In this document: positions 1-15,792 of the stretch, piece by piece
Position numbering within the stretch: position 1 is the first letter of the stretch
Layout: each line of letters starts with the position of its first letter
Virus record (IMG/VR): IMGVR_UViG_3300031344_000007
Location: 7,083 to 71,082 of that record
Origin: a virus
Reading direction: 5' to 3' (one strand)
Length of the DNA: 64,000 nt
Program-made: the position numbers and the translations under genes
Notes under the pieces: generated by a model
The model's input: the letters and a program-made list of their open reading frames with translations, nothing else
Databases searched by the model: none
Told to the model about the DNA's origin: nothing

Positions 1-170
1 TTATAAATGTATTGAAAAACATTTATAAATACAAGCGTATATGAGTTTTTATTTAGATTTTATTAATTATTTTTTTAAATTTTTTAATGATTTAGTACTG
101 AAACTTTTAACAAAAAAAGGGAGCAAATTTGCCCCCAAATAAAACGAAATTAGATACAAAAAAACAGAAA

Positions 171-980
171 TTATTTATTGTCTTTAGTAACTATTAAAGT
201 ATTGGTTGATGTTACTGAATTTCCATCTGCAGTGCTGAATAAACTCAAATTCCCACTATCTTTAACATCTTTTTTATTTTCATCATCAGTAGTAATTAAA
301 GATTTTGACAATTTTTGAAAATTACCATCTGTTGTGTTCATACTTCTATATGATACTGATGCATTATTCAATGTATTTGACATACTAACTACTCCATCAG
401 TTGTTGCCATATAAGTAAAAGTATTTCCAGCACTTACACCAAATGATTGACCAACAGAAAATGCATCTTGATTTGCAGCCAAATAAATAATATTCCAATT
501 ATCATTCTCGCATTCTTTTATAAGTTTTTTAATATCATCAAGTTTATATTCATGACTAGCATTTTCCTCACCATCAGTTACAATACAAACCAAAACTTTC
601 GAAGGTTTTTCATTGCCAAGACGTGCATGTATACTTTTAACATTATTAATTGTTTTACCTATTGCATCATAAAGAGCAGTCATTCCTCTTGGAATCCAGA
701 TTTCACTTGTGAGTTCTTCTGCTTTCTTTATATCAATATTGTCATAAAGTAAATTGTATTCATTATCAAATAATACAACAGTTATTGTTGCTTCATCTTT
801 TAATTCTTTTTGCTTTCTTAAAAAAGTATTAAATCCACCAATACTATCAGATATAATACTTGACATTGAACCACTTCGGTCAAGTATACAGATAATTTGA
901 GTTTTTTCGTTTGTAGGAACGTCAACAATTTCTTCAGTGACGGTGGTTGTAGTTGTTTTTTTAATTTTTTTGTTTGCCAT
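171..980 (-). CDS. von Willebrand factor A (vWA) domain protein
   Basis: MIDAS motif ILDRSGSM, plus RGMTALYDAIG and IVTDGEEN. Confidence 0.85.
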   Translation of the reverse strand: MANKKIKKTTTTTVTEEIVDVPTNEKTQIICILDRSGSMSSIISDSIGGFNTFLRKQKELKDEATITVVLFDNEYNLLYDNIDIKKAEELTSEIWIPRGMTALYDAIGKTINNVKSIHARLGNEKPSKVLVCIVTDGEENASHEYKLDDIKKLIKECENDNWNIIYLAANQDAFSVGQSFGVSAGNTFTYMATTDGVVSMSNTLNNASVSYRSMNTTDGNFQKLSKSLITTDDENKKDVKDSGNLSLFSTADGNSVTSTNTLIVTKDNK

Positions 981-1104
981 TTTTCATATTACTTAAGCAT
1001 AAAATTATTTTATCCCAAATATAACATCTTTTTATCAAAAATGCAAGTTATTTTTATTTAATCCAAATAAAAATAATAAGTATGGGAATATAAATACATT
1101 AAAT

Positions 1105-1137
1105 AAAAAAACCTGCTAGTTAATTCTAACAGGTTTT
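1105..1137 (-). terminator. Rho-independent terminator ending tRNA operon 1
   Basis: Minus strand AAAACCTGTTAG-AATTAA-CTAGCAGGTTTTTTT, just downstream of tRNA-Lys(CTT). Confidence 0.75.
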
Positions 1138-1145
1138 AAATTACG

Positions 1146-1218
1146 TACCTTTGATGGGACTTGAACCCACAACCCGATGATTAAGAATCACCTACTCTAC
1201 CAATTGAGCCACAAAGGT
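1146..1218 (-). tRNA. tRNA-Lys(CTT)
   Basis: Acceptor ACCTTTG/CAAAGGT, anticodon arm GGTGA-TT CTT AA-TCATC, T arm GTGGG-TTCAAGT-CCCAT. Confidence 0.93.
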
Positions 1219-1845
1219 ATTTTCATATTCTTTTTTTAATTTATGACATCTACAATAATTTCCACCCTTTGCTGCCAATCCAACAGAAATTAATGCTTGC
1301 CTCATATTAAAATTATAATCAATTAATGCCATTAATAACTCTTCATCATTTATTTTACGTTTATTATTTTGTTTGTTTCTTCCTCTCCATGTTGGGGTTA
1401 ATGAATGACAATTGGGACATAATGCTTCAAGATTTTCTCTTTTATTATTTTGATGATTACCATCAATATGTTCTAATTCTAATGTTATTTTTTCATCAAG
1501 CCATTTAGATAATTTACATTTATTACATTGTTCGTTTTGTTCTAAAATAACTTTATTTCTTTTACTATCAACCCCCAAATCATTAAAATTTGTATTAAAT
1601 AATTTATTTTTCCAATATTCTTTTCTTTTTTCATTAATTTCTTTCCATTTTTCTTTTGAAAAATTATTAAATCTATTAATTCCAGTAGGTTTTCCTTTTA
1701 ATTTGTTACTTAATTTTTCATTAATTTCTTTTCTTTTTTCTTTGGTGCTAAAACTTCTTGCACATTTTGATGAACAAAAATTACCGTTACTATATTTACT
1801 ATATTTAATAGCATCTTTACTTTGACAATTTTTACATTTTTTCAT
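1192..1845 (-). CDS. HNH homing endonuclease
   Basis: CNKC...LELEHIDGNHQNNKRENLEALCPNCHS HNH motif, N-terminal Cys clusters. Stop codon lies inside tRNA-Lys(CTT). Confidence 0.88.
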   Translation of the reverse strand: MKKCKNCQSKDAIKYSKYSNGNFCSSKCARSFSTKEKRKEINEKLSNKLKGKPTGINRFNNFSKEKWKEINEKRKEYWKNKLFNTNFNDLGVDSKRNKVILEQNEQCNKCKLSKWLDEKITLELEHIDGNHQNNKRENLEALCPNCHSLTPTWRGRNKQNNKRKINDEELLMALIDYNFNMRQALISVGLAAKGGNYCRCHKLKKEYENTFVAQLVE

Positions 1846-1892
1846 TTCGAACTATTTTAATATAAATACATAATAAATTAAAATAGTTCGAA
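1846..1892 (-). promoter_or_regulatory. Perfect 16-bp inverted repeat over the HNH translation-initiation region, with a late-promoter-like GTATTTATA at the loop
   Basis: ttcgaactattttaat (1846-1861) / attaaaatagttcgaa (1877-1892); tataaatac at 1861-1869. Confidence 0.75.
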
Positions 1893-1897
1893 TTTTG

Positions 1898-1970
1898 TCT
1901 CCCCGCTTGGAATCGAACCAAGCCCTTCGGTTTAAAAGACCGAAGCAATACACCTGTTTGCTACGAGGAG
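1898..1970 (-). tRNA. tRNA-Lys(TTT)
   Basis: Acceptor CTCCTCG/CGGGGAG, anticodon arm TCGGT-CT TTT AA-ACCGA, T loop TTCGATT. Confidence 0.92.
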
Positions 1971-1981
1971 AAATTATAAAG

Positions 1982-2066
1982 TGAGAGTGGTAGGATTCGA
2001 ACCTACTGAGTATCATAGTGCGGGATTTACAGTCCCGTGCCCATCCACCATCTGAGCAGCACTCCC
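1982..2066 (-). tRNA. tRNA-Tyr(GTA)
   Basis: Acceptor GGGAGTG/CACTCTC, anticodon arm CGGGA-CT GTA AA-TCCCG, long variable region, T arm GTAGG-TTCGAAT-CCTAC. Confidence 0.93.
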
Positions 2067-2084
2067 ATGACATATATTAAAAGC

Positions 2085-2113
2085 AAAAAACCCGAAACTT
2101 TCGAATCGGGTTT
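2085..2113 (-). terminator. Attenuator terminator of tRNA operon 1
   Basis: AAACCCGA-TTCGAAAGTT-TCGGGTTTTTT. Its 5' arm CCCGATTC is complementary to GAATCGGG in the leader ORF. Confidence 0.85.
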
Positions 2114-2137
2114 ATGTTATTTATACTTTGTAATTTA

Positions 2138-2230
2138 TTAGCATTGTATTTTGAACACAGCATTCCCGATTCTCATAAGTTGTTTCTTATAAGATTTTTT
2201 ACCGTAATAATATGTTCCAAATGTAAACAT
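2138..2230 (-). CDS. Leader peptide 1 (MFTFGTYYYGKKSYKKQLMRIGNAVFKIQC)
   Basis: 30-codon ORF read from the sequence, between a TACATTTG promoter and the terminator. Tyr/Lys codon cluster. Confidence 0.8.
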   Translation of the reverse strand: MFTFGTYYYGKKSYKKQLMRIGNAVFKIQC

Positions 2231-2266
2231 TGCTTTATTTTTTATTTTAATTATTAATTTCTTTTG

Positions 2267-2274
2267 CAAATGTA
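2267..2274 (-). promoter_or_regulatory. Bacteroidota-type -7 promoter element TACATTTG
   Basis: Matches TAnnTTTG, 36 nt upstream of leader 1. Confidence 0.65.
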
Positions 2275-2341
2275 TATCATAAATACGAATAAAACAAATA
2301 AATGTTACAAAAAATTAAATTATTTTAAATTAATGTGTGAT

Positions 2342-3610
2342 TTATGAAATTTGTATTGCTTCTCTCATTATTTTAATTTCTTGTTGTTTAATATAATTAC
2401 CTAAATTAGAAGCAAATATCCAACCCGACCTTTCAAATGGAGTTTTACCACCGTTATAAATAAAATGAATTTTAAATTTTAGTTTTTTATTATCTTCTTC
2501 ATTTTCGTCATATTTAAATTCGGTGATATTAATTGTTTTATCTTGTTGTTTATATGTAGCAATTATTCCTTTCTTATTAACAGGTGTAAATTTATATTTA
2601 GAAATATATTCTTGTAATTCTGTATATCCTTTAACAAGTCCATAATAATCACTATCAGGGTCATCAAATCCATTAATAATATCAACTAATTTATCATCAA
2701 TTGCTTGATTAAGTTCAGTTAAATCCATATTATTATATGCCGTTTCATAAATATTTTCATAATTAATATCATTTTTCGTTCCCAAATTATCTAAAAATTG
2801 GTCAAAAGTTGAAATGTTTTTAAAATTATTTTTATATATAAAAGGTAATAATTTATCAATCATAAATTCAGTTTCATCATTATTAATTTTCAATGGAAAT
2901 GTTTCTAATTGTTCTTCTGCTGCAGTTATATTGGCATTGTCAAATGCTTCACCATATTCAGATAAATAAATTTCATTAATTATATTTAATTTATGCTCAT
3001 CTAAAAAATCTGAGAGATTACCTTCTTTCTGAAATCCAGATATTGTTTCATCATCTGCTCCCATCATTTTAGCAATTTCATTTATTTTTGACATATTATT
3101 ATTAGATAATGTACGTTGCATATATAATAACTTATCAGAATCTGCATATCCATTACCATAATATCCACCAGCAGTTGAGGTAACATTTTCGTAATTATCA
3201 CCTAAATTAAGTATGTTAATAACATTATCTTTATCTACTTTAATTGTAAAATAATCATTTTGAAAATAAATTCCTCTTCCATTTTCTTTATAAAAATTAC
3301 TATTTGTAATAAAATTTTCTAATTCTTTAAAATTATCGCCATGTTCATAATTTAGAAGTATTTTTAAAAATCCGGTACTTTCTTTATTATATGCATCCAG
3401 TATTGGTGTGATATATTGTTGAACTTTAGGATTTGTAGTATAAATTTCATAAACATCACCAATACTTAATTTACTAAAATCCATAATTTTATTTTCCAAT
3501 GCATATTTACTATATTCATACGGTAAATATTTATATCTTAGCTTATGGCTTGCAGCTATTGCCCTTTTACGATAATATGTGTCAATTAGTGACTTTTGTG
3601 CTTTATCCAT
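2342..3610 (-). CDS. Hypothetical protein
   Basis: 422-aa ORF, no recognised motif. Confidence 0.6.
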   Translation of the reverse strand: MDKAQKSLIDTYYRKRAIAASHKLRYKYLPYEYSKYALENKIMDFSKLSIGDVYEIYTTNPKVQQYITPILDAYNKESTGFLKILLNYEHGDNFKELENFITNSNFYKENGRGIYFQNDYFTIKVDKDNVINILNLGDNYENVTSTAGGYYGNGYADSDKLLYMQRTLSNNNMSKINEIAKMMGADDETISGFQKEGNLSDFLDEHKLNIINEIYLSEYGEAFDNANITAAEEQLETFPLKINNDETEFMIDKLLPFIYKNNFKNISTFDQFLDNLGTKNDINYENIYETAYNNMDLTELNQAIDDKLVDIINGFDDPDSDYYGLVKGYTELQEYISKYKFTPVNKKGIIATYKQQDKTINITEFKYDENEEDNKKLKFKIHFIYNGGKTPFERSGWIFASNLGNYIKQQEIKIMREAIQIS

Positions 3611-3619
3611 AAAAAAATA

Positions 3620-4669
3620 TTAAACCTCTTCATTTATTAATACATTAAATTGTTTTTCTGGTATTGGTTGTCCAGTATCAAGATATTGATGAAGTAAATG
3701 AAATCCACCCTTATCATTTTTATATTGCCATAAATATTCAAATTGTTCATCACCAAGTAATTGTCCACGTCCAATATATTTTGATTTTTCTTCAAATGTA
3801 AGTTTTTTGAACCAATCTAAATTATGATTTTTTGTACCCAAATTTGCTGTTTCTTTTTCTTCTTCAGGTGTTTTTGGTTTATTAACAAATAATTTATTTA
3901 TTGGAACACCTTTAGTTTTTAAATATCTTAAATAAGCATTAGTATTGTTTGCATATTTTGCAATATTACCAGTACTATTACTAGCATCAGTTAATTCAAT
4001 TCCTCTATCAGTAGCATCAACAACAACAATATGTAACGGATTACTTAAATCATAATTACCATCAATAACATAATAAAATGTACTTGTTTTAGTATCTCGA
4101 TAACTTTGCCACATGGTATTTGCTGGTTGCCCAATACAAAAACCATAATGTTGTCCTGTAAGTGCACCAGTAGTATAATGAATACATTTACCAACATCAT
4201 TACCATCATAAATTTTAATATTATTACCTTCCCATATTGGTGGTTCATTAGTATCTACATTAATTTTACCTTTCCATTGTTCATGACCTTTAGACATAAA
4301 TTCTAAACCATGAATAAATTCAGCAAACTTTAAATAATTTGAAAAAGTTTTATTATTGATGATATATCTTGTATCTGATATTTGTGGTGTGGTAATTTTA
4401 TTTGTATTAAGTAATTCAGATATTGTTGTAAATAAATGTAGCATATCATTTAATCCTCTATCACCAACTTCAAGATATGCTTTAGACATGATTGGAATAA
4501 GCACTTGATTTTTTGACCTATCAATACCTCGAAATTTAATTATTAAATTATTAATGTTATTATCTGCAATTCCACCTTTTTTTAATATAGCAATTGCTTG
4601 TTGTTCTGTTTGCTTAGATTCCGTTAAATAATTTTTAACTTCTTCTCGTATGATTTCAATTATATTCAT
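3620..4669 (-). CDS. Hypothetical (probably late/virion) protein
   Basis: 349-aa ORF preceded by GTATTTATA (4704-4712); N-terminal IIREEVKNYLTE motif. Confidence 0.6.
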   Translation of the reverse strand: MNIIEIIREEVKNYLTESKQTEQQAIAILKKGGIADNNINNLIIKFRGIDRSKNQVLIPIMSKAYLEVGDRGLNDMLHLFTTISELLNTNKITTPQISDTRYIINNKTFSNYLKFAEFIHGLEFMSKGHEQWKGKINVDTNEPPIWEGNNIKIYDGNDVGKCIHYTTGALTGQHYGFCIGQPANTMWQSYRDTKTSTFYYVIDGNYDLSNPLHIVVVDATDRGIELTDASNSTGNIAKYANNTNAYLRYLKTKGVPINKLFVNKPKTPEEEKETANLGTKNHNLDWFKKLTFEEKSKYIGRGQLLGDEQFEYLWQYKNDKGGFHLLHQYLDTGQPIPEKQFNVLINEEV

Positions 4670-4712
4670 GATTATATAATTAATCTATTTAATAACATTT
4701 TTTTATAAATAC

Positions 4713-4741
4713 AAAAAAAGCGAAGAAAATTCTTCGCTTTT
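4713..4741 (-). terminator. Rho-independent terminator
   Basis: AAAAGCGAAGAA-TT-TTCTTCGCTTTTTTT downstream of the RNA ligase. Confidence 0.75.
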
Positions 4742-4766
4742 AAATACTATGACAATATAAAATGAA

Positions 4767-5861
4767 TTAATTATTTTCCAAACTATTTTCTGTATTTCGA
4801 GAAAACGGTTTCGAAAATACTGGTCGTATTTGCTTCCATATAATATTATTATAATTTTTTTTATCATATAATTGAAATAATATTGAGCGATATTCTGATT
4901 TTATTGATTCCATAGCAAATGCTTTACGGTCAGTAATTCCATTAACATGGTAAATTCTTACAAATTCTTTTAATGATTTTCTTTCGATTTCATTGAAATT
5001 CAATTGTAATTCTTTAATTGTTTTATTCAACCAACCCAAAAATTCATCAGGAACTTTATCAAGTAAAGCATCAAAATCATAATTATTCATCAAATGTTCC
5101 CAAACAGTTAGATTTGAAACATTAGTTAAAATACCATGTAATCTAACATATTCTGCAAATTTAACTTTTACTCTGAATCCATCTTTGAATTTCACAACGA
5201 ATCCTTCTCGGTTTTCTTCTTCAAGTTTTTGTAAATCTTTAAGATTTTTAATATTATTTATATTGTATTTCTTAACGATTGTAAAATACTTTGAATAAGT
5301 AGATACAATATCGTCATAGCATATTTCATCACCAGTTTTTGTATTAATTATGGTAAGTAATACAAGTTCTCTTCTATCACCATAATCAACAACAATGCGG
5401 TTTTCAGGTGCTAAGTATTCTAAAACATACGTAAAATTCTTATTTAAATTATCATAAACAGAATTATTAATTAATTTTTTTGCCTCAATTGCTTGTTCAG
5501 AAATAAATGAACCTCTACTAGCTACAATCCACTCCATACGTGGAATATAATAAAAAATTTCTATATAACTACCATCAATTTTTTCCAATATCTCAAATTC
5601 TTGTGACATATCAATTTCTGAAGGGTCATGTTCTTCATAGTTCTTGAATTTTTTTATACACCTAGCTAAAATATTACCTTCTGCATCAATAACCAATCCT
5701 CTACAAGAACTGGTATATAAATCCCAAAATTTTTTGAATTGAACTTTAGGTGAATAATTTAATATCCAAATCTCATATTCTGGATGTTTATTTGCAATTA
5801 TGAGATTGTTGTCAACATAACTTTTTAATACATTCCAATCAATTTTTTCTAATATTTCCAT
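4767..5861 (-). CDS. T4 Rnl1 (RnlA)-like RNA ligase
   Basis: CRGLVID, KFKN, motif I EKIDGS, ASRGSF, ENRIVVDY, motif IV EGFVV, RVKVK. Confidence 0.88.
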   Translation of the reverse strand: MEILEKIDWNVLKSYVDNNLIIANKHPEYEIWILNYSPKVQFKKFWDLYTSSCRGLVIDAEGNILARCIKKFKNYEEHDPSEIDMSQEFEILEKIDGSYIEIFYYIPRMEWIVASRGSFISEQAIEAKKLINNSVYDNLNKNFTYVLEYLAPENRIVVDYGDRRELVLLTIINTKTGDEICYDDIVSTYSKYFTIVKKYNINNIKNLKDLQKLEEENREGFVVKFKDGFRVKVKFAEYVRLHGILTNVSNLTVWEHLMNNYDFDALLDKVPDEFLGWLNKTIKELQLNFNEIERKSLKEFVRIYHVNGITDRKAFAMESIKSEYRSILFQLYDKKNYNNIIWKQIRPVFSKPFSRNTENSLENN

Positions 5862-5862
5862 A

Positions 5863-6732
5863 TTAATTTCCTCTTTCTTTTGGATATTGAAAGATTTTGT
5901 TTCTTTCTATAAATATTTTTCTCAATTTTTTTGTTTCAGTATTATTCATACCTAATACATATGCATATTTATGTTTAGGTTTCATTTCTCTACTTTCACA
6001 AGATAATAAATATTCTTTTGAAAGTTTTCTTATTTGTAATGCAATTTCTTCTGGCATTTTATCAAACATTACACTATCACCATTTTGCCATTCGTCATGC
6101 CAAATGATTTCATTTTCTTTTGCAAGTCTTTTATAGACTGACCTCGCTCGAAAATATCTATCAGATACCCATCTTCCAGTTTCAATTTTATATTGATTTT
6201 TTGCACCAGATTTTTTACCTAAATAATAAAAATTACATGCTTGATAAATTGTACCTAATTCTTTTGCTTCAACATCTGAATAAGCAACAAATAAACGATA
6301 TTGTGTATTTTTTACCATCCAATTAATTGTAAACATAATTAAAGAACTTCCTAAATTTTTTGGTGACCAACTGATACAAGCACCTCTACTTATTAATCTT
6401 TCAATTTTTTTTGTATCTTCTCCTAATAATTTTGAAAATACACTTGGCATATCAATAATTACTACACCAGCCAAAATTCCTTTATATCTTGCTGTAAATA
6501 TGTGTGTTGGGTATAAACTTACTCTTTGCAACCATTCATGTCTTTCAATAAATTTTTTAATTTCATCAAAACATGTTTTCTTATCTTCATTCTGAAAAAC
6601 AAAATCACCAACTTTTAATTTTTTTGCTTCATCAATAGTTATATTCGCTTGCTTTAAATCATTGGTCAAATTATTTAACCTGATATCATATTGCCAACAA
6701 TGTTGTTGATTATAATTATTAATCATTTCCAA
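5863..6732 (-). CDS. Mom-like (GNAT-fold) DNA-modification acyltransferase
   Basis: LISRGAC..PKNLGSSLI, VAYSD...GTIYQACNFYYLG, typical of the Mu Mom family. Confidence 0.7.
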   Translation of the reverse strand: MEMINNYNQQHCWQYDIRLNNLTNDLKQANITIDEAKKLKVGDFVFQNEDKKTCFDEIKKFIERHEWLQRVSLYPTHIFTARYKGILAGVVIIDMPSVFSKLLGEDTKKIERLISRGACISWSPKNLGSSLIMFTINWMVKNTQYRLFVAYSDVEAKELGTIYQACNFYYLGKKSGAKNQYKIETGRWVSDRYFRARSVYKRLAKENEIIWHDEWQNGDSVMFDKMPEEIALQIRKLSKEYLLSCESREMKPKHKYAYVLGMNNTETKKLRKIFIERNKIFQYPKERGN

Positions 6733-7024
6733 TAATTTTAATTTTTTTTGCTAAAAACCATTTACCACCTTGATGTATTGGTCTATTAAATTCTGAATAT
6801 TCTTTCATTTCAACTTTAAGCCAAATTCTATTTTTATTACTTAAATGCGGTGCTTCTGGTTTTTCAGTACAATGCCAAAATGGTCGTACTTTATATCCTT
6901 TAGTCGGATAACAATTTGCTTCTAGCCATGCATTTCTTTTTAATTGTTCCGATTTATTAATAAAAAGTGATGTTATTTCACCAGATTTTAATTCTCTAAA
7001 TAATTTATACGCAATTTTTGACAT
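6719..7024 (-). CDS. Hypothetical protein
   Basis: 101-aa ORF (AYKLFR...WHC..KPEAPHL), TATATTTG promoter upstream. Confidence 0.6.
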   Translation of the reverse strand: MSKIAYKLFRELKSGEITSLFINKSEQLKRNAWLEANCYPTKGYKVRPFWHCTEKPEAPHLSNKNRIWLKVEMKEYSEFNRPIHQGGKWFLAKKIKIIGND

Positions 7025-7103
7025 AATGTTACAAATTTATTTGTTTTTAATATATGCAAATATATAAAAAAATTAAAGAATCACAGAGTATTTATATAAA
7101 ATT

Positions 7104-7550
7104 ATGTTTATGGGTGGTTTAAATATTAATAACTTCATTAAAAAAGAGGTGCAAAATTTTCTAAATGAAGCATCAGTTGTAAAAGATAATAGATTTCATT
7201 TCAATCAAAGATTAAATAATTCTTCATTTTCTAATTATGATACATTTACTTCAGAATTTGATGCAAATATTATTGAAAGTGACATTGTTATAACATGGAT
7301 AGTTTTATTTTGGTTAAATGATATGGGAATTGAAAATTTTGTAATAGAAGTGGAAAAAGCAGAAGGAACATTTACAATTGAAATGCGTGATAAACATAGT
7401 GATGAAATAAAACAAAATACACCAAAAAATATTAATGACTTTAATTGGAAATTTGTTATTGATGATGCTGTTTTACAAAAAAGCGGTTCGTTATATATTT
7501 CAGGATTAGAATTTGATTTTAAATCACAAATTTGTAAATTAAAATTTTAA
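7104..7550 (+). CDS. Hypothetical late protein
   Basis: 148-aa ORF, GTATTTATA at 7088; N-terminal FIKKEVQNFLNE motif. Confidence 0.6.
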   Translation: MFMGGLNINNFIKKEVQNFLNEASVVKDNRFHFNQRLNNSSFSNYDTFTSEFDANIIESDIVITWIVLFWLNDMGIENFVIEVEKAEGTFTIEMRDKHSDEIKQNTPKNINDFNWKFVIDDAVLQKSGSLYISGLEFDFKSQICKLKF

Positions 7551-7569
7551 ATAAAAAAATATAATTATT

Positions 7570-7821
7570 ATGAAAAAAATTTGGGAAGAAATTAAAGCAT
7601 GGTTCATTACAAAATGGACCGCATTAAAAGCATGGTTCATTGCAAAACCATTGGCTTGGATTAAAAAAAATTGGTTTATGATTGTCAATTACATAGTAAT
7701 AGTATTGGCATACAATAATATTTATGGTAAAACTAATGCCGAATTTGCTGAAGTTTTATTAGGACTTTGGATATTTACATCTGTTGCATATGCTGGATGG
7801 AAACTGTTTATAAAAAAATAA
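7570..7821 (+). CDS. Small membrane protein (two TM segments)
   Basis: Amphipathic Trp/Lys-rich N-terminus plus two hydrophobic stretches. Confidence 0.6.
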   Translation: MKKIWEEIKAWFITKWTALKAWFIAKPLAWIKKNWFMIVNYIVIVLAYNNIYGKTNAEFAEVLLGLWIFTSVAYAGWKLFIKK

Positions 7822-7865
7822 ACATGTTGGAATTCTAAATCTGTTATTGATAATGTTTTTATTCG

Positions 7866-7936
7866 TAGCGATAATAAGAATCGAACTTATATGTCCTCCT
7901 TATGAGAGAGTTATCCTACCATTGAATGATATCGCT
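7866..7936 (-). tRNA. tRNA with CAT anticodon (Met, or lysidine-Ile)
   Basis: Acceptor AGCGATA/TATCGCT, loop CT CAT AA, T arm ATAAG-TTCGATT-CTTAT. Confidence 0.82.
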
Positions 7937-7939
7937 ATA

Positions 7940-8269
7940 TTATGTTGAGAATTTAATCTCAACATAAGTTCTTTTGTGTCCAATTCTATGTTCTTCAACA
8001 ATTTTAATTGGTTTTCGCATCCATTGTTTTTTATTTTTAGAAACCAATTTCCAGTTTGGAAATCTTGTATTAGTTCCTTTTCTTTTACCATGACAAGTTT
8101 CCATATCATCGTAAATAATTCCGCCATACCATTTTTTATCATTGTTTTCATTTTGATGATAACCACAGTATGAACAATGAATTTTTCCTGTTTGTTCAAG
8201 ATGCAATTTATATGCACGATTGAATTCACCACGATTTGTGGTTGTTTTAACTAAATTTTTACTTCCCAT
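7940..8269 (-). CDS. Basic hypothetical protein with CxxCxxH
   Basis: 109-aa ORF, IHCSYCGYH, preceded by a uORF and hairpin. Confidence 0.65.
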   Translation of the reverse strand: MGSKNLVKTTTNRGEFNRAYKLHLEQTGKIHCSYCGYHQNENNDKKWYGGIIYDDMETCHGKRKGTNTRFPNWKLVSKNKKQWMRKPIKIVEEHRIGHKRTYVEIKFST

Positions 8270-8292
8270 TTTTCTTGTTACGCTTTAGTGCG

Positions 8293-8319
8293 TTACAAGA
8301 ATTCAAAATTTTTTTTCAT
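8293..8319 (-). CDS. Putative uORF MKKNFEFL
   Basis: Its stop codon lies in the 5' arm of hairpin TTCTTGTAACGC-ACTAAA-GCGTAACAAGAA, which abuts the next ATG. Confidence 0.45.
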   Translation of the reverse strand: MKKNFEFL

Positions 8320-8490
8320 AATTTTATATTTTTGAGATTATATCTTTATGTTCTTTTAATGACCATTCAATACTTTTAAATGTTAATTCCATTATTTCAG
8401 GATTAGCTAAATCAATTTCAGATTCATCAATTTCATCTTCATAATTTTTGAATCTTATTTTACTATTTTTTCTTAATCCAAAATTCATTG

Positions 8491-8979
8491 TTATTCGCTT
8501 TTAATTATTACTGATTTAGTATATTTTTTATCATTCCATTCATCATGCCAACGATTATTAAATTGGTCAAATGTAAATAATTTAATTCCACCAATATATG
8601 GGTCATAAATAAATACTCGAAAATCATCGAAACCAAATACAATACAGTAATGTCCATGACTCCAAGTATTTTTCCAAGATTTTCTATATTCTTTTCTTGC
8701 TTGTAAAAGAACAATTACTGGTTTTTTATTGTTTATTTGATTTTTTAAATATCTTATATTTTTATGTTCTTCTAATTTGGTTTCTAAACCAAATTTTTTT
8801 AGTAAAGTAACTAATTTTTCTGGACATAATCCATCAATTGGTGAAATCTTTGATATCTTTAAAAGTGTATTATAATCAACTTTTATTTTAGAATGTTTTA
8901 AGTGTGACCATGCTACTGCAAGACTACAATCAAAATCATAATTCTGTTCACGCATGGGAATTTGTAATATCATGTACAT
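8491..8979 (-). CDS. Peptidase C39-like cysteine protease
   Basis: Q..DFDCSLA, KPVIV, HGHYCIVFGFD, IYDP. Start trimmed to MYMIL because the longer ORF runs through the tRNA. Confidence 0.8.
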   Translation of the reverse strand: MYMILQIPMREQNYDFDCSLAVAWSHLKHSKIKVDYNTLLKISKISPIDGLCPEKLVTLLKKFGLETKLEEHKNIRYLKNQINNKKPVIVLLQARKEYRKSWKNTWSHGHYCIVFGFDDFRVFIYDPYIGGIKLFTFDQFNNRWHDEWNDKKYTKSVIIKSE

Positions 8980-8997
8980 AAAATTTCCCTCTATTTG

Positions 8998-9080
8998 TTT
9001 CCTTGGTGGGAGTCGAACCCACACGCCCGAAGGCACTCGCTTTTGGGGAGAGCATGTGCTGCCAATTTCATCACAAGGAA
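8998..9080 (-). tRNA. tRNA-Leu(CAA), with C33 and an anticodon-stem mismatch
   Basis: Acceptor TTCCTTG/CAAGGAA, loop CC CAA AA, variable arm GCC-TTCG-GGC. Confidence 0.8.
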
Positions 9081-9081
9081 A

Positions 9082-9198
9082 TTATACTTTTTTCTTTATA
9101 ATTCGTCTATAGTTTATTTTTTTCCTTTCAGTTATTTTAACCGATTTTCCACATCCACAATCATCTTCTTTTTGAAGTGGTTTTCTAATATTTGTCAT
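9082..9198 (-). CDS. 38-aa basic peptide (MTNIRKPLQKEDDCGCGKSVKITERKKINYRRIIKKKV)
   Basis: Below the ORF-track cut-off; has its own GTATTTATA motif at 9207-9215. Confidence 0.5.
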   Translation of the reverse strand: MTNIRKPLQKEDDCGCGKSVKITERKKINYRRIIKKKV

Positions 9199-9357
9199 AA
9201 TTTTAATATAAATACTTGGTTTGTTTATTTGTAGCTCTGACGGGATTTAAACTCTTACGAACTTTTGGTTCAAGTTGTTGTAATAATTTTTCTGCGTTCT
9301 TTCCAATTTGCCACAGTATTATATTTTCATATGAATACTGTGGAATTGGAAATTATG

Positions 9358-9719
9358 TGGTGGAGATGCGGGGCATCGATTCCCCGGTGTTGCAATGTGA
9401 TTAATAAGTTTTCTACAAGTTTATTTGATTTTCATAAATCAGCAAAATGTTAATTGTATTTTTCCAGAACAACTACAAAACTGTCCAGAACTTATTTTAC
9501 TTCCTTTCTGATTTGGGAAGTTTTTTGCTGTTTATTTTTTCCTGTTACGCAATTGAAAGTACGGCACTCTTTACAAATACGCTGTTTCCTTTTGTCAAGG
9601 AAGTAGGAATAGACATAATGTCTTCTGCATTTATTGTTTTGAACCTTTTTAAAGTAGTCCGATTCAACTACTACTTGCTTACATCATTTTTCTACATACA
9701 GTCAAATCCATTCATCCCC
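9358..9719 (-). ncRNA. ssrA: tmRNA
   Basis: 5' GGGGATGAATGGATTTGAC, 3' CATCTCCACCA, G3:U70 pair, resume context ATAAAT-GCA, tag ORF 9628-9545. Confidence 0.93.
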
Positions 9720-9761
9720 ATTATTTTAAAGAACTTTTATTCTAATAATAAATAGTTGTTA

Positions 9762-10487
9762 TTATTTTTTATTTTTCGGTTCTTTTCTAAAACTCCATTT
9801 ATAATCAAAACCGTGTTGTTCAATTTTATATTTATCAGCCACTTCAATAATTTCTTTTTCACCTCTACCAAGAACACCACCAATAAACATACTTATTTCC
9901 TGAAATGCTTGAAAACTATCAAATACTCTATAAAACAGATAATCACTTAAAATTGGATTAATAAAAAGTTTTTCATCACGTCTATAATAATGACCAACAC
10001 TTTTTCTATTATAATCACTATCATAAATAAAAATAGGTGCTTTAAAATCTCTAAATAATTGAAGAGCATCGTAATTTTTAATATAATTATAGTGTTCTTC
10101 AAGATTTCCATACCAACCTTTATTATCAATAATTGTTTTTATTAAATCAAAATCATATGTAATTGTAGTTATAAGTGTTTCTGGATAATCTTTTTTGTTT
10201 TCATAATATAATTTCCAACCAATATATAATTTTCCACAAAATCCAATAATAAAAGAACTACAATTTTGATAATTTTTATATTGTTCATTTTTTATTGTAT
10301 GATTTCCAATATTTAAAAAAGGCGAATCTTTACTTTTTTTAAAAGAAAATCCCTTTCTTTGAAATATTGATGGGAATTTTTTTTCTTCAACCTCAATTAT
10401 TTCACGGTCATAAACAAGTGTCTTATCAATACCCATAGTACCAACAACACCATCGTAAAAATCTTTTTTCTTCGAAATTATTAACAT
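9762..10487 (-). CDS. Conserved-looking phage hypothetical protein
   Basis: 241 aa; KDFYDG, IGFCGKLY, KIEQHGFD..WSFRK. Confidence 0.65.
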   Translation of the reverse strand: MLIISKKKDFYDGVVGTMGIDKTLVYDREIIEVEEKKFPSIFQRKGFSFKKSKDSPFLNIGNHTIKNEQYKNYQNCSSFIIGFCGKLYIGWKLYYENKKDYPETLITTITYDFDLIKTIIDNKGWYGNLEEHYNYIKNYDALQLFRDFKAPIFIYDSDYNRKSVGHYYRRDEKLFINPILSDYLFYRVFDSFQAFQEISMFIGGVLGRGEKEIIEVADKYKIEQHGFDYKWSFRKEPKNKK

Positions 10488-10556
10488 AATTTTACAAATT
10501 TAGTCTATTATATAAATATATGCAAATAAAAAATAAGTTTTATTTAGATATCAAAG

Positions 10557-10639
10557 CACACCGAGAACGATTCGAACGCTCAAAACCATTACTGGTCGCA
10601 CTTTTGGAGAGTGTTTGGCTTACCAATGCCTACCGATGT
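10557..10639 (-). tRNA. tRNA-Trp(CCA) with a long variable arm
   Basis: Acceptor ACATCGG/TCGGTGT, G73, loop CT CCA AA, variable arm ACCA-GTAA-TGGT. Confidence 0.82.
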
Positions 10640-10662
10640 GTATATTACTGAAATAATTTTTG

Positions 10663-10744
10663 TAGCTCTGGTCGGATTCGAACCGACACGCCCGAAGACA
10701 TTTGCTTTTAAGACAAACACGTCTACCAATTCCATCACAGAGCC
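10663..10744 (-). tRNA. tRNA-Leu(TAA)
   Basis: Anticodon arm TTTGT-CT TAA AA-GCAAA, class II variable arm, T arm GTCGG-TTCGAAT-CCGAC. Confidence 0.92.
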
Positions 10745-10750
10745 ATATTG

Positions 10751-10821
10751 TGGATACTTCGGGACTCGAACCCAATCTTCTGAGTGCAAAACAGACGTTC
10801 TTTCCTTTGAACTAAAGACCC
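10751..10821 (-). tRNA. tRNA-Ala(TGC)
   Basis: G3:U70, A73, loop TT TGC AC; some stem mismatches. Confidence 0.8.
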
Positions 10822-10883
10822 ATATTAAATTTCTATGCTTTCCATTACTTGGAACTATGAAATTTTTAACAGTCTTTCTACCG

Positions 10884-10957
10884 TGGAATCGAAGGGCATC
10901 GAACCCTCACTCTCCTGATTGCAGGTCAGGTGCTTTAGCCAGTTAAGCTACGACCCC
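10884..10957 (-). tRNA. tRNA-Ala(TGC), with C33
   Basis: Acceptor GGGGTCG/CGATTCC with G3:U70, anticodon arm CCTGA-CC TGC AA-TCAGG. Confidence 0.88.
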
Positions 10958-10970
10958 AATTATTATTTAG

Positions 10971-11049
10971 TAGCCAAGAAGAGACTCGAACTCTCACCAA
11001 TGATTATGCGTTCTAAGCGCACAGACTTTACCATTTTGTCCACTCGGCT
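10971..11049 (-). tRNA. tRNA-Leu(TAG)
   Basis: Anticodon arm GTGCG-CT TAG AA-CGCAT, T arm GAGAG-TTCGAGT-CTCTT. Confidence 0.88.
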
Positions 11050-11054
11050 AAATG

Positions 11055-12392: not shown

Positions 12393-12467
12393 ATATAATA
12401 TTTTATATAAATACTATATACTCTTAAAAAGAATCGAAATTGTTTAATTAGAATGATTTAAATTTTG

Positions 12468-13395: not shown

Positions 13396-13432
13396 TTATA
13401 CGAACAATATTAATTTTTGTTACATTCTTTTC

Positions 13433-13473
13433 AAAAAAAAATCTCGACCATTTTTAAGTGGTCGAGATTTTTT
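13433..13473 (-). terminator. Attenuator terminator of tRNA operon 2
   Basis: AAAAAATCTCGACCA-CTTAAAAA-TGGTCGAGATTTTTTTTT; 5' arm complementary to TGGTCGAGA in the leader. Confidence 0.88.
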
Positions 13474-13490
13474 CATTAAGAAAGGAAATA

Positions 13491-13586
13491 TTATCTTTCT
13501 CGACCAAATATAACAATATCTTCTGCATCTGCCCATAATAGGACAACTGCCATCTCTGATACTAATATGTCGAGTAATCTTTTCAT
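13491..13586 (-). CDS. Leader peptide 2 (MKRLLDILVSEMAVVLLWADAEDIVIFGRER)
   Basis: 31-codon ORF between a TATCTTTG promoter (13642-13649) and the terminator. Confidence 0.8.
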   Translation of the reverse strand: MKRLLDILVSEMAVVLLWADAEDIVIFGRER

Positions 13587-13678
13587 TATTTTTTAATTAT
13601 TAAATTTGTTTTACTAACTTCGTTTAATTCTAAATACGTTGCAAAGATATAAAATGTTACAATATATACAAACTTTTT

Positions 13679-15430: not shown

Positions 15431-15441
15431 ATATATATAAT

Positions 15442-15470
15442 AAAAAACCCCATTCGTTTGAATGGGGTCT
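15442..15470 (-). terminator. Attenuator terminator of tRNA operon 3
   Basis: AGACCCCATTC-AAAC-GAATGGGGTTTTTT; 5' arm complementary to TGAATGGGG in the leader. Confidence 0.88.
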
Positions 15471-15499
15471 ACTAATTGCTCTCTCACTTCTTAAAAAAC

Positions 15500-15568
15500 T
15501 TAAGCATAGTTTCCCCATTCAGTCACCTGTGGATGTTGTTGGGGGTTAATATGCATTAAATTTTTCAT
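15500..15568 (-). CDS. Leader peptide 3 (MKNLMHINPQQHPQVTEWGNYA)
   Basis: 22-codon ORF between a TATATTTG promoter (15606-15613) and the terminator; PQQHPQ run. Confidence 0.85.
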   Translation of the reverse strand: MKNLMHINPQQHPQVTEWGNYA

Positions 15569-15792
15569 AACTAAAATTTTATAACTATGTTTAACAAAAT
15601 CATTGCAAATATATGCATTAAAATTATAAATACAAGCATTTTTTAAAAAAATTTTTATTAATAAGAAAAAATGTGTGAATCATGTAACATATTATCGGAA
15701 ATGTGTAACCTTTTTTAAATACCCTAAATGTATTTATTAGTGTTAGATAGCCACATTTTTCAATAAAAATTTAACACCAATAAAATAAATCA

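What the first reader, a model, noticed from the sequence alone, without database searches (positions are those of the whole stretch)
2085..2230. Attenuator 1: Tyr/Lys sensor for the Tyr-Lys-Lys operon
Codons 7-16 read YYYGKKSYKK (TAT, TAC, AAA, AAG), and the downstream tRNAs are exactly Tyr(GTA), Lys(TTT) and Lys(CTT). A protector hairpin CGGT..TCTTATAAG/CTTATGAGA-ATCG covers the control codons. Antiterminator pairing is GAATCGGG/CCCGATTC. The N-terminal FTFGT has no matching tRNAs here. Inference: Phe/Thr/Gly tRNAs may have been lost from this operon.
Basis: partly seen in the sequence, partly recalled or inferred. Interest (0 to 1): 0.85.

Follow-up and report, generated by a model that had tools for sequence, protein, structure and literature searches.

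The report
Leader-peptide attenuator controlling phage tRNA genes
A giant phage places a short Tyr/Lys-rich mini-gene and a switchable transcription stop signal in front of its own tyrosine and lysine tRNA genes, apparently so that these tRNAs are made only when the cell runs short of them, and the same design recurs for its three other tRNA operons.

Summary
After a TAnnTTTG promoter box come a 30-codon ORF (2230-2138; codons 7-16 = YYYGKKSYKK), a protector hairpin, the pairing GAATCGGG/CCCGATTC, and an intrinsic terminator (2113-2085). The terminator ends 18 nt before tRNA-Tyr, which is followed by Lys(ttt) and Lys(ctt).

The window is part of a 71-kb fragment of a roughly 320-kb jumbo phage. 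That fragment holds four such units, and each leader is enriched in the amino acids of the tRNAs behind it.

In 12 related jumbo-phage records plus one near relative, the operon's own tRNA set fits its leader best in 45 of 47 cases. Cognate residues make up 67.5% of codons upstream of the antiterminator and 28.3% from it onward. Where an operon gains, loses or splits tRNAs, its leader changes with it.

All 21 matches in IMG/VR (a public collection of viral contigs) to the motif G-T-Y-Y-Y-x-K-K-x-Y-K lie in this leader. 20 of them are followed by Tyr/Lys tRNAs; the 21st locus is cut short.

Best reading (0.8): a classical ribosome-mediated attenuator, here controlling tRNA genes.

Seven literature searches, six of them aimed at such a system, found no prior report. 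There is no experimental evidence yet.

The parts
2267..2274 (-). Promoter-like -7 box TACATTTG (TAnnTTTG), 44 nt before the leader ATG
   Evidence: Read. The motif occurs near the leader start in 41 of 44 leaders, against 0.14 expected per 190 nt. TAnnTTTG is described as the -7 box of Flavobacterium and Bacteroides in passages of PMC7641319.
2138..2230 (-). Leader ORF, 30 codons plus stop: MFTFGTYYYGKKSYKKQLMRIGNAVFKIQC*
   Evidence: It is conserved in 14 distinct orthologues.
2183..2212 (-). Control codons 7-16, YYYGKKSYKK (4 Tyr and 4 Lys; uses TAT, TAC, AAA and AAG)
   Evidence: It is one of only 2 such windows in the six-frame translation of the record.
2150..2221 (-). Protector (anti-antiterminator) hairpin. 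Top helix: 2204-2186 with 2179-2167. Base: UUUGGA 2221-2216 with UUCAAA 2155-2150.
   Evidence: In the 24-pair version 96.4% of cells pair, against 39-48% when the partners are slid. Two pairs show compensatory changes.
2165..2172 (-). Antiterminator 5' segment GAATCGGG (codons 20-22)
2103..2110 (-). Antiterminator partner CCCGATTC, which is the 5' arm of the terminator plus the first loop bases
2085..2113 (-). Intrinsic terminator AAACCCGA-loop-TCGGGTTT plus T-run. It ends 18 nt before tRNA-Tyr.
1981..2066 (-). tRNA-Tyr (gta)
1897..1970 (-). tRNA-Lys (ttt)
1192..1845 (-). 217-aa ORF inserted between the two Lys tRNAs. I read it as an HNH-like homing endonuclease from a motif I recall; it has no Pfam hit.
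1145..1218 (-). tRNA-Lys (ctt)
1108..1137 (-). Terminator-like hairpin that closes the operon
15439..15613 (-). Sister unit 2. Box TATATTTG; leader MKNLMHINPQQHPQVTEWGNYA (15568-15500); pairing GAATGGGG (15520-15513) with CCCCATTC (15467-15460); terminator 15470-15445. It is followed by tRNA Pro, His, Gln and Gln.
13432..13649 (-). Sister unit 3. Box TATCTTTG; leader MKRLLDILVSEMAVVLLWADAEDIVIFGRER (13586-13491); pairing GGTCGAGA (13505-13498) with TCTCGACC; terminator 13470-13432. It is followed by tRNA Asp, Glu, Glu, Val, Leu x3, Ala x2 and Trp.

Best explanation
This is a ribosome-mediated (leader-peptide) transcription attenuator that controls a phage tRNA operon.

Proposed sequence of events:
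1. Transcription starts at a Bacteroidota-type promoter (TACATTTG).
2. A ribosome translates the 30-codon leader.
3. If charged tRNA-Tyr or tRNA-Lys is scarce, the ribosome stalls in YYYGKKSYKK and covers the 5' strand of the protector hairpin. GAAUCGGG is then free to pair with CCCGAUUC, the terminator cannot form, and RNA polymerase reads on into tRNA-Tyr, Lys(ttt) and Lys(ctt).
4. If these tRNAs are plentiful, the ribosome runs on over the antiterminator segment and leaves. The protector hairpin closes, the terminator forms and transcription stops 18 nt before tRNA-Tyr.

The product of the operon therefore relieves the signal that induces it, giving negative feedback on tRNA supply.

Shown by sequence and comparison: the parts, their conservation, the match between leader codons and tRNAs, and the alternative pairings. 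Inferred: translation of the ORF, the stalling, the kinetic order of folding, and the physiological trigger. Candidate triggers are depletion of host tRNA, a mismatch in codon usage, or host nucleases that cleave tRNA.
For: (1) Anatomy. Promoter box, ORF, protector, antiterminator and terminator lie in the right order, and only 18 nt separate the T-run from tRNA-Tyr, which leaves no room for another promoter.

(2) Four units of the same design occur in this phage, and each leader is enriched in the amino acids of the tRNAs behind it:
- Tyr/Lys: 9/29 residues against 4.2 expected, p=0.017.
- Pro/His/Gln: 7/21 against 1.7, p=9e-4.
- Asp/Glu/Val/Leu/Ala/Trp: 19/30 against 9.1, p=2e-4.
- Thr/Cys/Ile/Ser/Phe/Gly/Met/Asn: 34/41 against 18.1, p=4e-7.
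The true assignment of leaders to operons is the best of 24 permutations.

(3) A prediction was met. Leader 4 is rich in Thr, Phe, Gly and Asn, but its operon is cut by the end of the contig. In the near relative the same leader precedes Thr, Thr, Cys, Ile, Ser, Ser, Phe, Gly, Met, Asn.

(4) Across 12 related genomes plus the near relative:
- The operon's own tRNA set gives the best score in 45 of 47 leader-operon pairs.
- 861 of 1546 residues are cognate, against 441.7 expected.
- The true assignment ranks first in 10 of 11 genomes with 3 or more operons.

(5) Position. 736/1091 codons upstream of the antiterminator are cognate, against 124/438 from it onward (Fisher p=2e-44).

(6) Leader composition changes with the operon's tRNA content:
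- G014 splits operon 4. ..IITITQITRIRGTKT.. precedes Thr, Arg, Arg, Ile. ..FLNLNNNPSNLNSNFISGNIFLGTC.. precedes Phe, Ile, Ser, Gly, Gly, Ser, Asn, Leu, Leu, Cys.
- In G012 the leader has a Trp and the operon starts with tRNA-Trp.

(7) In Tyr/Lys leaders the order of residues varies (YYYGKKSYKK, YKKYKNY, SYSYKTYKKS, YYKKYYYKHY, KKYYYKKSSK, TYYGYKSYKK) while the composition is kept.

(8) Antiterminator pairing:
- Own energies have a median z of -3.7 against shuffles; 74 of 4400 shuffles do as well.
- The own arm is the best among same-genome arms in 38 of 44 cases.
- Own pairing beats pairing with orthologues' arms in every class (Wilcoxon p=0.005-0.049).
- Divergent Tyr/Lys members carry matched changes: G014 GAAGATCAG with CTGATCTTC; G011 CTGGATCAGG with CCTGATTCAG.

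(9) 21 of 21 IMG/VR matches to the leader motif are this leader, and 20 are followed by Tyr/Lys tRNAs. A second motif, PQPQQHPQ, gives 41 matches. By my reading of the listing, 30 are leader-type and 28 of these precede arrays that start with tRNA-Pro (2 loci are cut). The 11 matches in other contexts have no tRNA.

(10) Folding the transcript up to the terminator loop with a 30-nt ribosome footprint:
- A site on codons 1-15: the terminator's 5' arm is already paired upstream with probability 0.74-0.79.
- A site on codons 17-27: probability 0.01-0.19.
Against: There is no experiment, and translation of the ORF has not been shown.

- Whole-ORF enrichment of this particular leader is the weakest of the four (p=0.017).
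- Among the 14 close orthologues the 8-bp antiterminator is only conserved and shows no covariation. Covariation appears only with divergent members, where n=10, p=0.049, and there is no correction for phylogeny.
- The 47 pairs derive from four homologous leader families and are not independent.
- Equilibrium folding of the full transcript keeps the terminator (probability 0.86-0.94) at most ribosome positions. It drops only at codons 10-12 (0.20-0.40), so the switch would have to be kinetic.
- On the truncated transcript, a ribosome parked at the stop codon still leaves the antiterminator favoured (0.66-0.68). The simplest model does not predict this.
- For units 3 and 4 the ribosome-free state also favours the antiterminator (0.65 and 0.74).
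- One relative (G004) keeps the promoter and terminator before tRNA-Tyr but has no intact leader ORF.
- Seven relatives carry about 150 nt of repeats between the terminator and the first tRNA, which could hold another promoter.
- The host is unknown.
Confidence: 0.8

Rival explanations
1. The same attenuator hardware is present, but the signal is amino-acid starvation (uncharged tRNA) rather than a shortage of tRNA molecules. The unit would tune tRNA output to the host's nutritional state and would not act as a tRNA-supply or counter-defence sensor.
For: A stalled ribosome cannot tell a missing tRNA from an uncharged one; this is established knowledge of trp- and his-type attenuation and is recalled here. 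All the structural evidence fits this reading equally well.
Against: Making more tRNA does not relieve amino-acid starvation, so induction would bring no benefit; this is an inference. Each leader matches exactly the tRNA species in its own operon, down to splits and transfers between operons. A T4 Rnl1-like RNA ligase lies 2.5 kb upstream, which points to pressure on tRNA integrity; its link to tRNA repair is recalled.
Confidence: 0.1
2. The terminator is overcome by a factor that does not depend on translating the leader, such as a phage antitermination protein or a small RNA. The ORF and its composition would be secondary.
For: - A conserved GTATTTA motif next to the promoter box and TGAAAAAC repeat arrays in some relatives could be protein-binding sites.
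- Equilibrium folding does not by itself produce a clean switch.
Against: This does not explain three things:
- Cognate codons are concentrated upstream of the antiterminator (67.5% against 28.3%).
- Leader composition follows the operon's tRNA content.
- The ORF, with its ATG and stop placed around the antiterminator, is kept in four unrelated sequences.
Confidence: 0.06
3. Coincidence or plain termination. The hairpin would end the transcript of the upstream 422-aa gene, the ORF would be a chance frame in AT-rich DNA, and the tRNAs would be made constitutively.
For: AT-rich DNA yields many short ORFs (207 ORFs of 20 aa or more in 16 kb) and many Lys and Tyr codons.
Against: - Only 2 windows this rich in Tyr/Lys occur in the whole record.
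- The leader is nearly invariant, even at synonymous sites, in 14 orthologues whose flanks vary.
- 21 of 21 IMG/VR motif matches are this leader, and 20 precede Tyr/Lys tRNAs.
- Only 18 nt separate the terminator from the tRNA.
- Two tRNA-bearing outgroup phages give no such unit with the same scan.
Confidence: 0.03

Closest known systems
Leader-peptide attenuators of enterobacterial amino-acid operons (trpL, hisL, pheL, thrL, leuL, ilvL); recalled, with pheL seen in the listing of PMC3082878
   Same: A short leader ORF with clustered control codons. Hairpins of the 1:2 (protector), 2:3 (antiterminator) and 3:4 (terminator) type that share strands. An intrinsic terminator before the regulated genes. 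Leaders for several amino acids, as in thrL and ilvL.
   Different: The regulated genes are tRNA genes, not enzymes, so the sensed molecule and the product are the same and the feedback is direct. The unit is phage-encoded. Some leaders report up to 8-10 amino acids. The promoter is of the Bacteroidota type, and I saw no Shine-Dalgarno sequence before the ATG (my reading). The stop codon lies 25 nt past the antiterminator, so a terminating ribosome does not mask it.
pheST attenuator (pheM leader) that controls phenylalanyl-tRNA synthetase in E. coli; recalled
   Same: Leader-peptide attenuation applied to a component of the translation apparatus and read out through the supply of charged tRNA.
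   Different: It controls a synthetase, not the tRNA. It senses a single amino acid. It is cellular, not viral.
T-box riboswitches (Rfam RF00230); recalled
   Same: A choice between terminator and antiterminator that depends on the status of a specific tRNA, upstream of translation-related genes.
   Different: No ORF is involved and the tRNA binds the RNA directly through a specifier codon and the T-box sequence. Rfam finds no T-box or any other family here, either at the curated (gathering) thresholds or at E-values up to 10. Sensing several amino acids with one leader fits a ribosome, not a T-box.
tRNA clusters of T4-like and other large phages, and the T4 Rnl1/Pnk repair of tRNA-Lys cleaved by PrrC; recalled
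   Same: - The capsid is T4-like (phrog_138).
- The tRNA array is interrupted by homing-endonuclease-like ORFs.
- An Rnl1-like RNA ligase lies nearby.
   Different: I know of no attenuator before those tRNA clusters, and six literature searches aimed at one found none. Two outgroups scanned with the same script lack the design: Flavobacterium phage immuto with 3 tRNAs, and LR756508, where 31 tRNAs were called in the fetched regions.

Membership tests
Ribosome-mediated (leader-peptide) transcription attenuator | A short translatable ORF in the 5' leader, downstream of a promoter | tested here: met
   The ORF is 30 codons with an ATG start, 44 nt after a TAnnTTTG box. Translation itself is not shown.
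Ribosome-mediated (leader-peptide) transcription attenuator | Clustered control codons for the amino acid(s) tied to the regulated genes | tested here: met
   8 of 10 codons in YYYGKKSYKK are Tyr or Lys, before tRNA-Tyr, Lys and Lys. The operon's own set fits best in 45 of 47 leader-operon pairs.
Ribosome-mediated (leader-peptide) transcription attenuator | An intrinsic terminator between the leader ORF and the regulated genes | tested here: met
   Hairpin 2113-2088 with a T-run to 2085, 18 nt before tRNA-Tyr. 91.1% of cells pair in 14 orthologues.
Ribosome-mediated (leader-peptide) transcription attenuator | An antiterminator that uses the terminator's 5' arm and excludes the terminator | tested here: met
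   - GAATCGGG pairs with CCCGATTC, with 97.3% of cells paired.
- The pairing beats shuffles (median z -3.7).
- Own pairing is better than pairing with orthologues' arms within every class.
Ribosome-mediated (leader-peptide) transcription attenuator | An anti-antiterminator (1:2 hairpin) whose 5' strand overlaps the control codons | tested here: met
   The protector is part of the minimum-energy fold. 96.1% of cells pair in the 13-pair version and 96.4% in the 24-pair version, with 2 compensatory pairs. For units 3 and 4 it is not clearly predicted.
Ribosome-mediated (leader-peptide) transcription attenuator | Read-through rises when the cognate charged tRNA is limiting | not testable with these tools
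   Only a footprint-constrained folding model is available. It is consistent on the truncated transcript and not on the full transcript at equilibrium.
Classical amino-acid operon attenuators (trp, his, phe, thr, leu, ilv) | The regulated genes encode amino-acid biosynthetic enzymes | tested here: not met
   The downstream genes are tRNAs plus an inserted endonuclease-like ORF. I therefore file it as a new variant and not as a member of these families.
T-box riboswitch | A match to the T-box covariance model (specifier loop and T-box sequence) | tested here: not met
   No Rfam match at the gathering threshold in the window. No T-box match at E-values up to 10 in 2040-2340.

The most novel reading that the evidence does not exclude
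A whole clade of soil and peat jumbo phages, about 320-365 kb, runs its near-complete tRNA set as four demand-sensing feedback circuits.

Each operon is gated by a leader peptide that works as a codon panel for exactly the tRNAs it controls. In G001 the four sets together cover all 20 amino acids.

The phage would then top up only those tRNAs that the infected cell lacks. The lack could come from a mismatch in codon usage, from host shut-off, or from host defences that cleave or deplete tRNA such as tRNA-Lys or tRNA-Tyr. This would be the first case of tRNA genes under leader-peptide attenuation, and a natural multi-channel sensor of tRNA availability.
Probability: 0.55. Interest if true: 0.92.

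Novelty: new variant of a known kind. Interest (0 to 1): 0.88.

Why it matters
Why phages carry large tRNA sets, and how they deploy them, are open questions. tRNA genes are normally thought to be controlled at promoters, not by sensing their own product.

A leader-peptide attenuator in front of tRNA genes would show three things:
- The classical attenuation mechanism has been turned into a direct homeostat of tRNA supply.
- A virus measures the translational capacity of its host codon by codon.
- Leader composition can be used to predict operon content; one such prediction was confirmed here.

It also links to the contest over tRNA-cleaving defences. Tyr and Lys tRNAs are known targets (recalled), and an Rnl1-like ligase lies nearby. 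Finally, it offers compact, reprogrammable sensors of tRNA availability for Bacteroidota and for cell-free systems.

Tried and rejected
Searches and tools that led nowhere
- Megablast of window 1-16000 and tblastn of the 422-aa neighbour against cultured phages found nothing. The nearest cultured capsid is only about 42% identical over 42% of its length.
- Rfam gave no family for the leader, at the gathering thresholds or at E-values up to 10. A T-box reading was rejected for that reason and because the leaders report several amino acids.

Hypotheses rejected
- The lost Phe/Thr/Gly tRNA hypothesis is rejected.
- Equilibrium folding of the full transcript with a ribosome footprint gave no clean switch. 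I judged it the wrong test for a co-transcriptional decision and used the transcript truncated before the terminator's 3' arm instead. That version fits for stalls at codons 1-15 but not for a ribosome at the stop codon.

Outgroups
- The same scan gave no convincing unit in Flavobacterium phage immuto (3 tRNAs) or the uncultured phage LR756508 (31 tRNAs called in the fetched regions). There was one weak candidate, at -9.5 kcal/mol, with a leader that does not match.

Errors of my own scan
- It missed the Tyr/Lys leader of G003, because a tRNA that ARAGORN did not call made the distance too large. I found it by eye.
- It scored the Tyr/Lys leader of G012 at -6.9 kcal/mol, under my -8 cut-off, so that leader is left out of the counts.
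- It produced two spurious units, G005 at 249499 and G008 at 92780. The G005 one is in the 47 pairs and causes both misses. The G008 one did not enter the 47 pairs, because fewer than two of its tRNAs were typed. The G005 one was dropped, and both were dropped.
- ARAGORN called the first tRNA after the G014 Tyr/Lys leader Leu(gag). From its anticodon loop I read it as Tyr(gta). That operon had fewer than 2 typed tRNAs and is not.

Sequencing runs
- Only Logan contigs were available.
- One contig from an RNA library (X24) covers 2074-2222 with no differences and runs on into the near relative's tRNA-Lys. That is across the terminator.
- Another contig (X22, 151 nt) covers 2174-2324, which reaches upstream of the predicted promoter box.
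- Contigs cannot show starts, ends or strand, and DNA can be present in RNA libraries. I therefore count this neither for nor against.
- Parts without cover mean nothing.

Not tried
- Protein homology searches, structure prediction and complex prediction were not used, because the object is an RNA switch and a 30-codon leader.
- Supplementary files of papers were not consulted.
Full report
WHAT IS THERE

Reading 5' to 3':
- A TACATTTG box at 2274-2267.
- An A-rich spacer.
- ATG at 2230, opening a 30-codon ORF, MFTFGTYYYGKKSYKKQLMRIGNAVFKIQC, with its stop at 2140-2138.
- Inside the ORF, the run TAT TAT TAC GGT AAA AAA TCT TAT AAG AAA (codons 7-16).
- A hairpin in which CGGT plus TCTTATAAG pairs with CTTATGAGA plus ATCG.
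- GAATCGGG at 2172-2165.
- After a 54-nt spacer, the intrinsic terminator AAACCCGA-loop-TCGGGTTTTTT (2113-2085). Its 5' arm contains CCCGATTC, the complement of GAATCGGG.
- tRNA-Tyr(gta) starts 18 nt after the T-run. Then come tRNA-Lys(ttt), a 217-aa endonuclease-like ORF, tRNA-Lys(ctt) and a closing terminator at 1137-1108.

RNAfold gives protector plus terminator as the minimum-energy structure, with z = -3.89 and none of 200 shuffles as stable. In all six frames of the whole record, only two 10-residue windows hold 8 or more Tyr/Lys, and this is one of them.

CONTEXT

- The window is bases 7083-71082 of a 71,082-base IMG/VR virus record, estimated to be 22% complete.
- It encodes a T4-like major head protein, a large terminase and a head protease.
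- It holds 19 tRNAs and a tmRNA in the window, plus 3 more tRNAs called by ARAGORN upstream of it and a further Rfam-only match.
- A T4 Rnl1-like RNA ligase lies 2.5 kb upstream of the Tyr/Lys unit.
- No cultured phage is close. The best capsid match is about 42% identical over 42% of its length and comes from Flavobacterium phage immuto and uncultured huge phages.
- IMG/VR holds at least 147 contigs whose capsid is a relative; the 80 kept are 75-96% identical. They include complete genomes of 320-365 kb with up to 65 tRNA matches.
- The DNA occurs in rhizosphere, peat and permafrost metagenomes.

THE SAME DESIGN, FOUR TIMES

Reading upstream of the other tRNA clusters showed the same architecture three more times.
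- Unit 2: MKNLMHINPQQHPQVTEWGNYA, pairing GAATGGGG/CCCCATTC, terminator, then Pro, His, Gln(ttg), Gln(ctg).
- Unit 3: MKRLLDILVSEMAVVLLWADAEDIVIFGRER, pairing GGTCGAGA/TCTCGACC, terminator, then Asp, Glu, Glu, Val, Leu x3, Ala x2, Trp.
- Unit 4, outside the window at genome positions 789-600: MMKTLTTNIFSSISTTTSRIGRTIFCSNFIGRNSNVSGILFS, pairing GTGTCGGG/CCCGACAC, terminator, then Cys, Ile, Ser, one more tRNA, and the end of the contig.

Measured against the amino-acid composition of the phage's own long ORFs, each leader is enriched in the set behind it. The p-values are 0.017, 9e-4, 2e-4 and 4e-7, the last using the operon content seen in the relative. The true pairing of leaders with operons is the best of 24 permutations, with a summed z of 15.7 against 8.1 for the next best.

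Leader 4 is rich in Thr, Phe, Gly and Asn, whose tRNAs were missing from the fragment. I predicted that they lie beyond the end of the contig. In the near relative (L002) the identical leader is followed by Thr, Thr, Cys, Ile, Ser, Ser, Phe, Gly, Met, Asn.

RELATIVES

I wrote a scan that looks for three things together: a terminator no more than 320 nt before a tRNA, the best duplex between the upstream 170 nt and the terminator's 5' arm, and an ATG-started ORF that ends between them. I ran it on the tRNA regions of 12 related genomes and on the near relative.

The four leader classes recur throughout. The main counts are:
- Over 47 leader-operon pairs, the operon's own tRNA set scores best in 45. 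Both misses come from one spurious call that splits an operon.
- 861 of 1546 leader residues are cognate, against 441.7 expected.
- The true assignment ranks first in 10 of 11 genomes with three or more operons.
- Cognate residues are 736/1091 of codons upstream of the antiterminator but 124/438, which is the background level, from it onward. An attenuator predicts this, because only stalls before the antiterminator can favour read-through.

These pairs belong to four homologous families and are not independent. The informative cases are therefore the ones where the operon content has changed:
- G014 has split operon 4. An Ile/Thr/Arg leader now precedes Thr, Arg, Arg, Ile. A Phe/Leu/Asn/Ser/Ile/Gly/Cys leader precedes Phe, Ile, Ser, Gly, Gly, Ser, Asn, Leu, Leu, Cys.
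- G012 has tRNA-Trp at the head of operon 4 and a Trp codon in that leader.
- G011 has three Leu tRNAs in operon 4 and LL in the control region.

Within a class the order of residues drifts while the composition stays. For Tyr/Lys the control regions are YYYGKKSYKK, YKKYKNY, SYSYKTYKKS, YYKKYYYKHY, KKYYYKKSSK and TYYGYKSYKK. This argues for selection on codon content and not on a particular peptide.

In G001 the four sets together cover all 20 amino acids.

THIS UNIT IN PARTICULAR

- A degenerate pattern for G-T-Y-Y-Y-x-K-K-x-Y-K matched 21 places in all of IMG/VR. All 21 lie in this leader, and 20 are followed by the antiterminator, the terminator and Tyr/Lys tRNAs. One locus ends too early to tell.
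- None of these clusters holds a Phe, Thr or Gly tRNA. One has a fifth tRNA that ARAGORN calls Leu(taa).
- The Tyr/Lys leader was found in 12 of the 13 genomes examined, 11 by the scan and G003 by eye. In G004 the promoter and terminator remain but the ORF is degenerate, and only a Tyr tRNA is left.
- In the alignment of 14 distinct sequences, the first 23 codons are nearly invariant even at synonymous sites. The 5' UTR and the spacer between stop codon and terminator vary.
- Pair counts are 96.1% for the protector, 97.3% for the antiterminator and 91.1% for the terminator. There is little covariation, because the sequences are so conserved.
- RNAalifold extends the protector to 24 pairs. These are 96.4% paired, against 39-48% when the partners are slid, and 2 pairs carry compensatory changes. 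The base of this hairpin is UUUGGA, the Phe4-Gly5 codons, paired with UCCAAA or UUCAAA. This explains why FGT is conserved without invoking lost tRNAs. The structure was derived from these same sequences, so the slide control is generous.

ANTITERMINATOR

- Across 44 units, the pairing between a unit's own upstream region and the 5' arm of its own terminator averages -15.1 kcal/mol. The median z against dinucleotide shuffles is -3.7, and 74 of 4400 shuffles do as well.
- The own arm is the best among the arms of the same genome in 38 of 44 cases.
- Within each class, own pairing beats pairing with orthologues' arms (Wilcoxon p = 0.042, 0.010, 0.049 and 0.005).
- Matched changes are clear in divergent Tyr/Lys members (G014, G011, G018, G002) and in unit 3: TGGTCGAGA with TCTCGACCA here, CAGTCGGG with CCCGACTG in the relative, and GTTCAGTCGGG with CCCGACTGAAC in G002.
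- I selected units by an energy cut-off, which inflates the absolute values. The swap tests are less affected.

PROMOTER AND HOST

- A TAnnTTTG box lies 18-71 nt before the leader ATG in most units. It is found in 41 of 44, against 0.14 expected per 190 nt.
- In three units it lies inside an over-long ORF call, which points to the internal ATG as the true start.
- Passages of PMC7641319 call this the consensus -7 box conserved in Flavobacterium and Bacteroides.
- I therefore infer a host in Bacteroidota; this is not shown.

MECHANISM

I read this as classical ribosome-mediated attenuation.
- A stall on the Tyr/Lys codons covers the 5' strand of the protector. GAAUCGGG then captures the terminator's 5' arm and the polymerase reads into the tRNAs.
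- A ribosome that runs on covers GAAUCGGG and then leaves. The local protector closes and the terminator forms.

A footprint-constrained partition-function model gives mixed support.
- On the transcript up to the terminator loop, with the A site on codons 1-15, the 5' arm is already paired upstream with probability 0.74-0.79. On codons 17-27 the probability is 0.01-0.19, and with no ribosome it is 0.33.
- The model does not fit everywhere. A ribosome at the stop codon gives 0.66-0.68.
- On the full transcript at equilibrium the terminator wins almost everywhere.
- The decision would therefore have to be kinetic, as in the trp attenuator (recalled).

What triggers stalling in nature is an inference. 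Candidates are codon demand of an AT-rich phage, loss of host tRNA, or tRNA-cleaving defences. The neighbouring Rnl1-like ligase fits the last option.

WHAT IS KNOWN

- Rfam has no family for it.
- Seven full-text searches were run. Six combined leader peptide, attenuation or attenuator, antiterminator, tRNA operon, array, cluster or genes, phage-encoded or viral tRNA, jumbo phage and Bacteroidetes. The seventh, on the TAnnTTTG promoter box, was not aimed at such a system. None returned a paper that describes leader-peptide attenuation of tRNA genes. From these I saw search listings and abstracts, plus passages of one paper.
- Two outgroup phages with tRNAs lack the design.

VERDICT

- The attenuator interpretation is well supported by comparative evidence, but it is untested at the bench.
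- The lost-tRNA inference is rejected.
- The mechanism is of a known kind. Its target is new: the tRNAs that it senses. So are its setting, a phage clade with four matched units, and its multi-amino-acid codon panels.

Noticed in passing
window 9358-9719 (-): A phage-encoded tmRNA gene (Rfam RF00023, 68.4 bits, full length) sits among the tRNA operons.
   Followed up: no
window 4767-5861 (-): A T4 Rnl1-like RNA ligase (Pfam RNA_lig_T4_1, E=2.6e-19) lies 2.5 kb upstream of the Tyr/Lys operon. Next to it is a Mom-like protein (5863-6732).
   Followed up: no
window 1192-1845, 11427-12392, 14353-15201 (-): ORFs inserted inside the tRNA operons. One has a DUF559 match and weak sub-threshold matches to NUMOD3-type and similar endonuclease-related domains. 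The others have Cys-rich or HNH-like motifs and no Pfam hit. They look like homing endonucleases that have invaded the arrays.
   Followed up: partly
upstream of 44 leaders, e.g. window 2290-2265 and 13650-13625: A GTATTTA motif accompanies the TAnnTTTG box in two arrangements. CGTATTTAT-N4-6-TAnnTTTG precedes the Tyr/Lys and Pro/His/Gln leaders. TAnnTTTG-N3-4-CGTATTTAGA precedes the other two classes. It may be a phage-specific promoter element or a regulator site.
   Followed up: no
L122, L109, L124, L126, L111, L112, L106, between the Tyr/Lys terminator and the first tRNA: In 7 relatives an insert of about 150 nt lies between the Tyr/Lys terminator and the first tRNA. It consists of TTGCATAAAAAC and TGAAAAAC repeats spaced roughly 27 nt apart and is not a conserved ORF. 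It is absent from the window.
   Followed up: partly
G001, G002, G003, G006, G014 (loci L091, L105, L088, L128, L132): A tRNA with anticodon CTA, which ARAGORN labels Pyl and which would read UAG, lies at the far end of the tRNA arrays. This hints at amber suppression or recoding in this clade. None was seen in the 71-kb record of the window.
   Followed up: no
window 2084-2293 compared with L002 11300-11530 and beyond: The Tyr/Lys leader DNA is identical in the window and in the 82%-identity relative. The tRNA genes behind it differ in order and in sequence, which suggests exchange of tRNA cassettes downstream of a fixed attenuator.
   Followed up: partly
G004 (L099), 420 nt upstream of tRNA-Tyr at 28056: The promoter box and terminator are kept, but the leader ORF is degenerate with no ATG, and the operon is reduced to a single Tyr tRNA. 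This looks like a decaying unit.
   Followed up: partly
window about 1893-1847 (-): A perfect 16-bp palindrome, TTCGAACTATTTTAAT...ATTAAAATAGTTCGAA, lies directly before the ATG of the endonuclease-like ORF, between the two Lys tRNAs.
   Followed up: no
window about 11240-11170 (-), after tRNA-Val: A long inverted repeat, ATATCGCCTTAATTACCGATA...TATCGGTTAAAAAGGCGATAT, lies between tRNA-Val and tRNA-Leu(aag). Its role is unknown.
   Followed up: no
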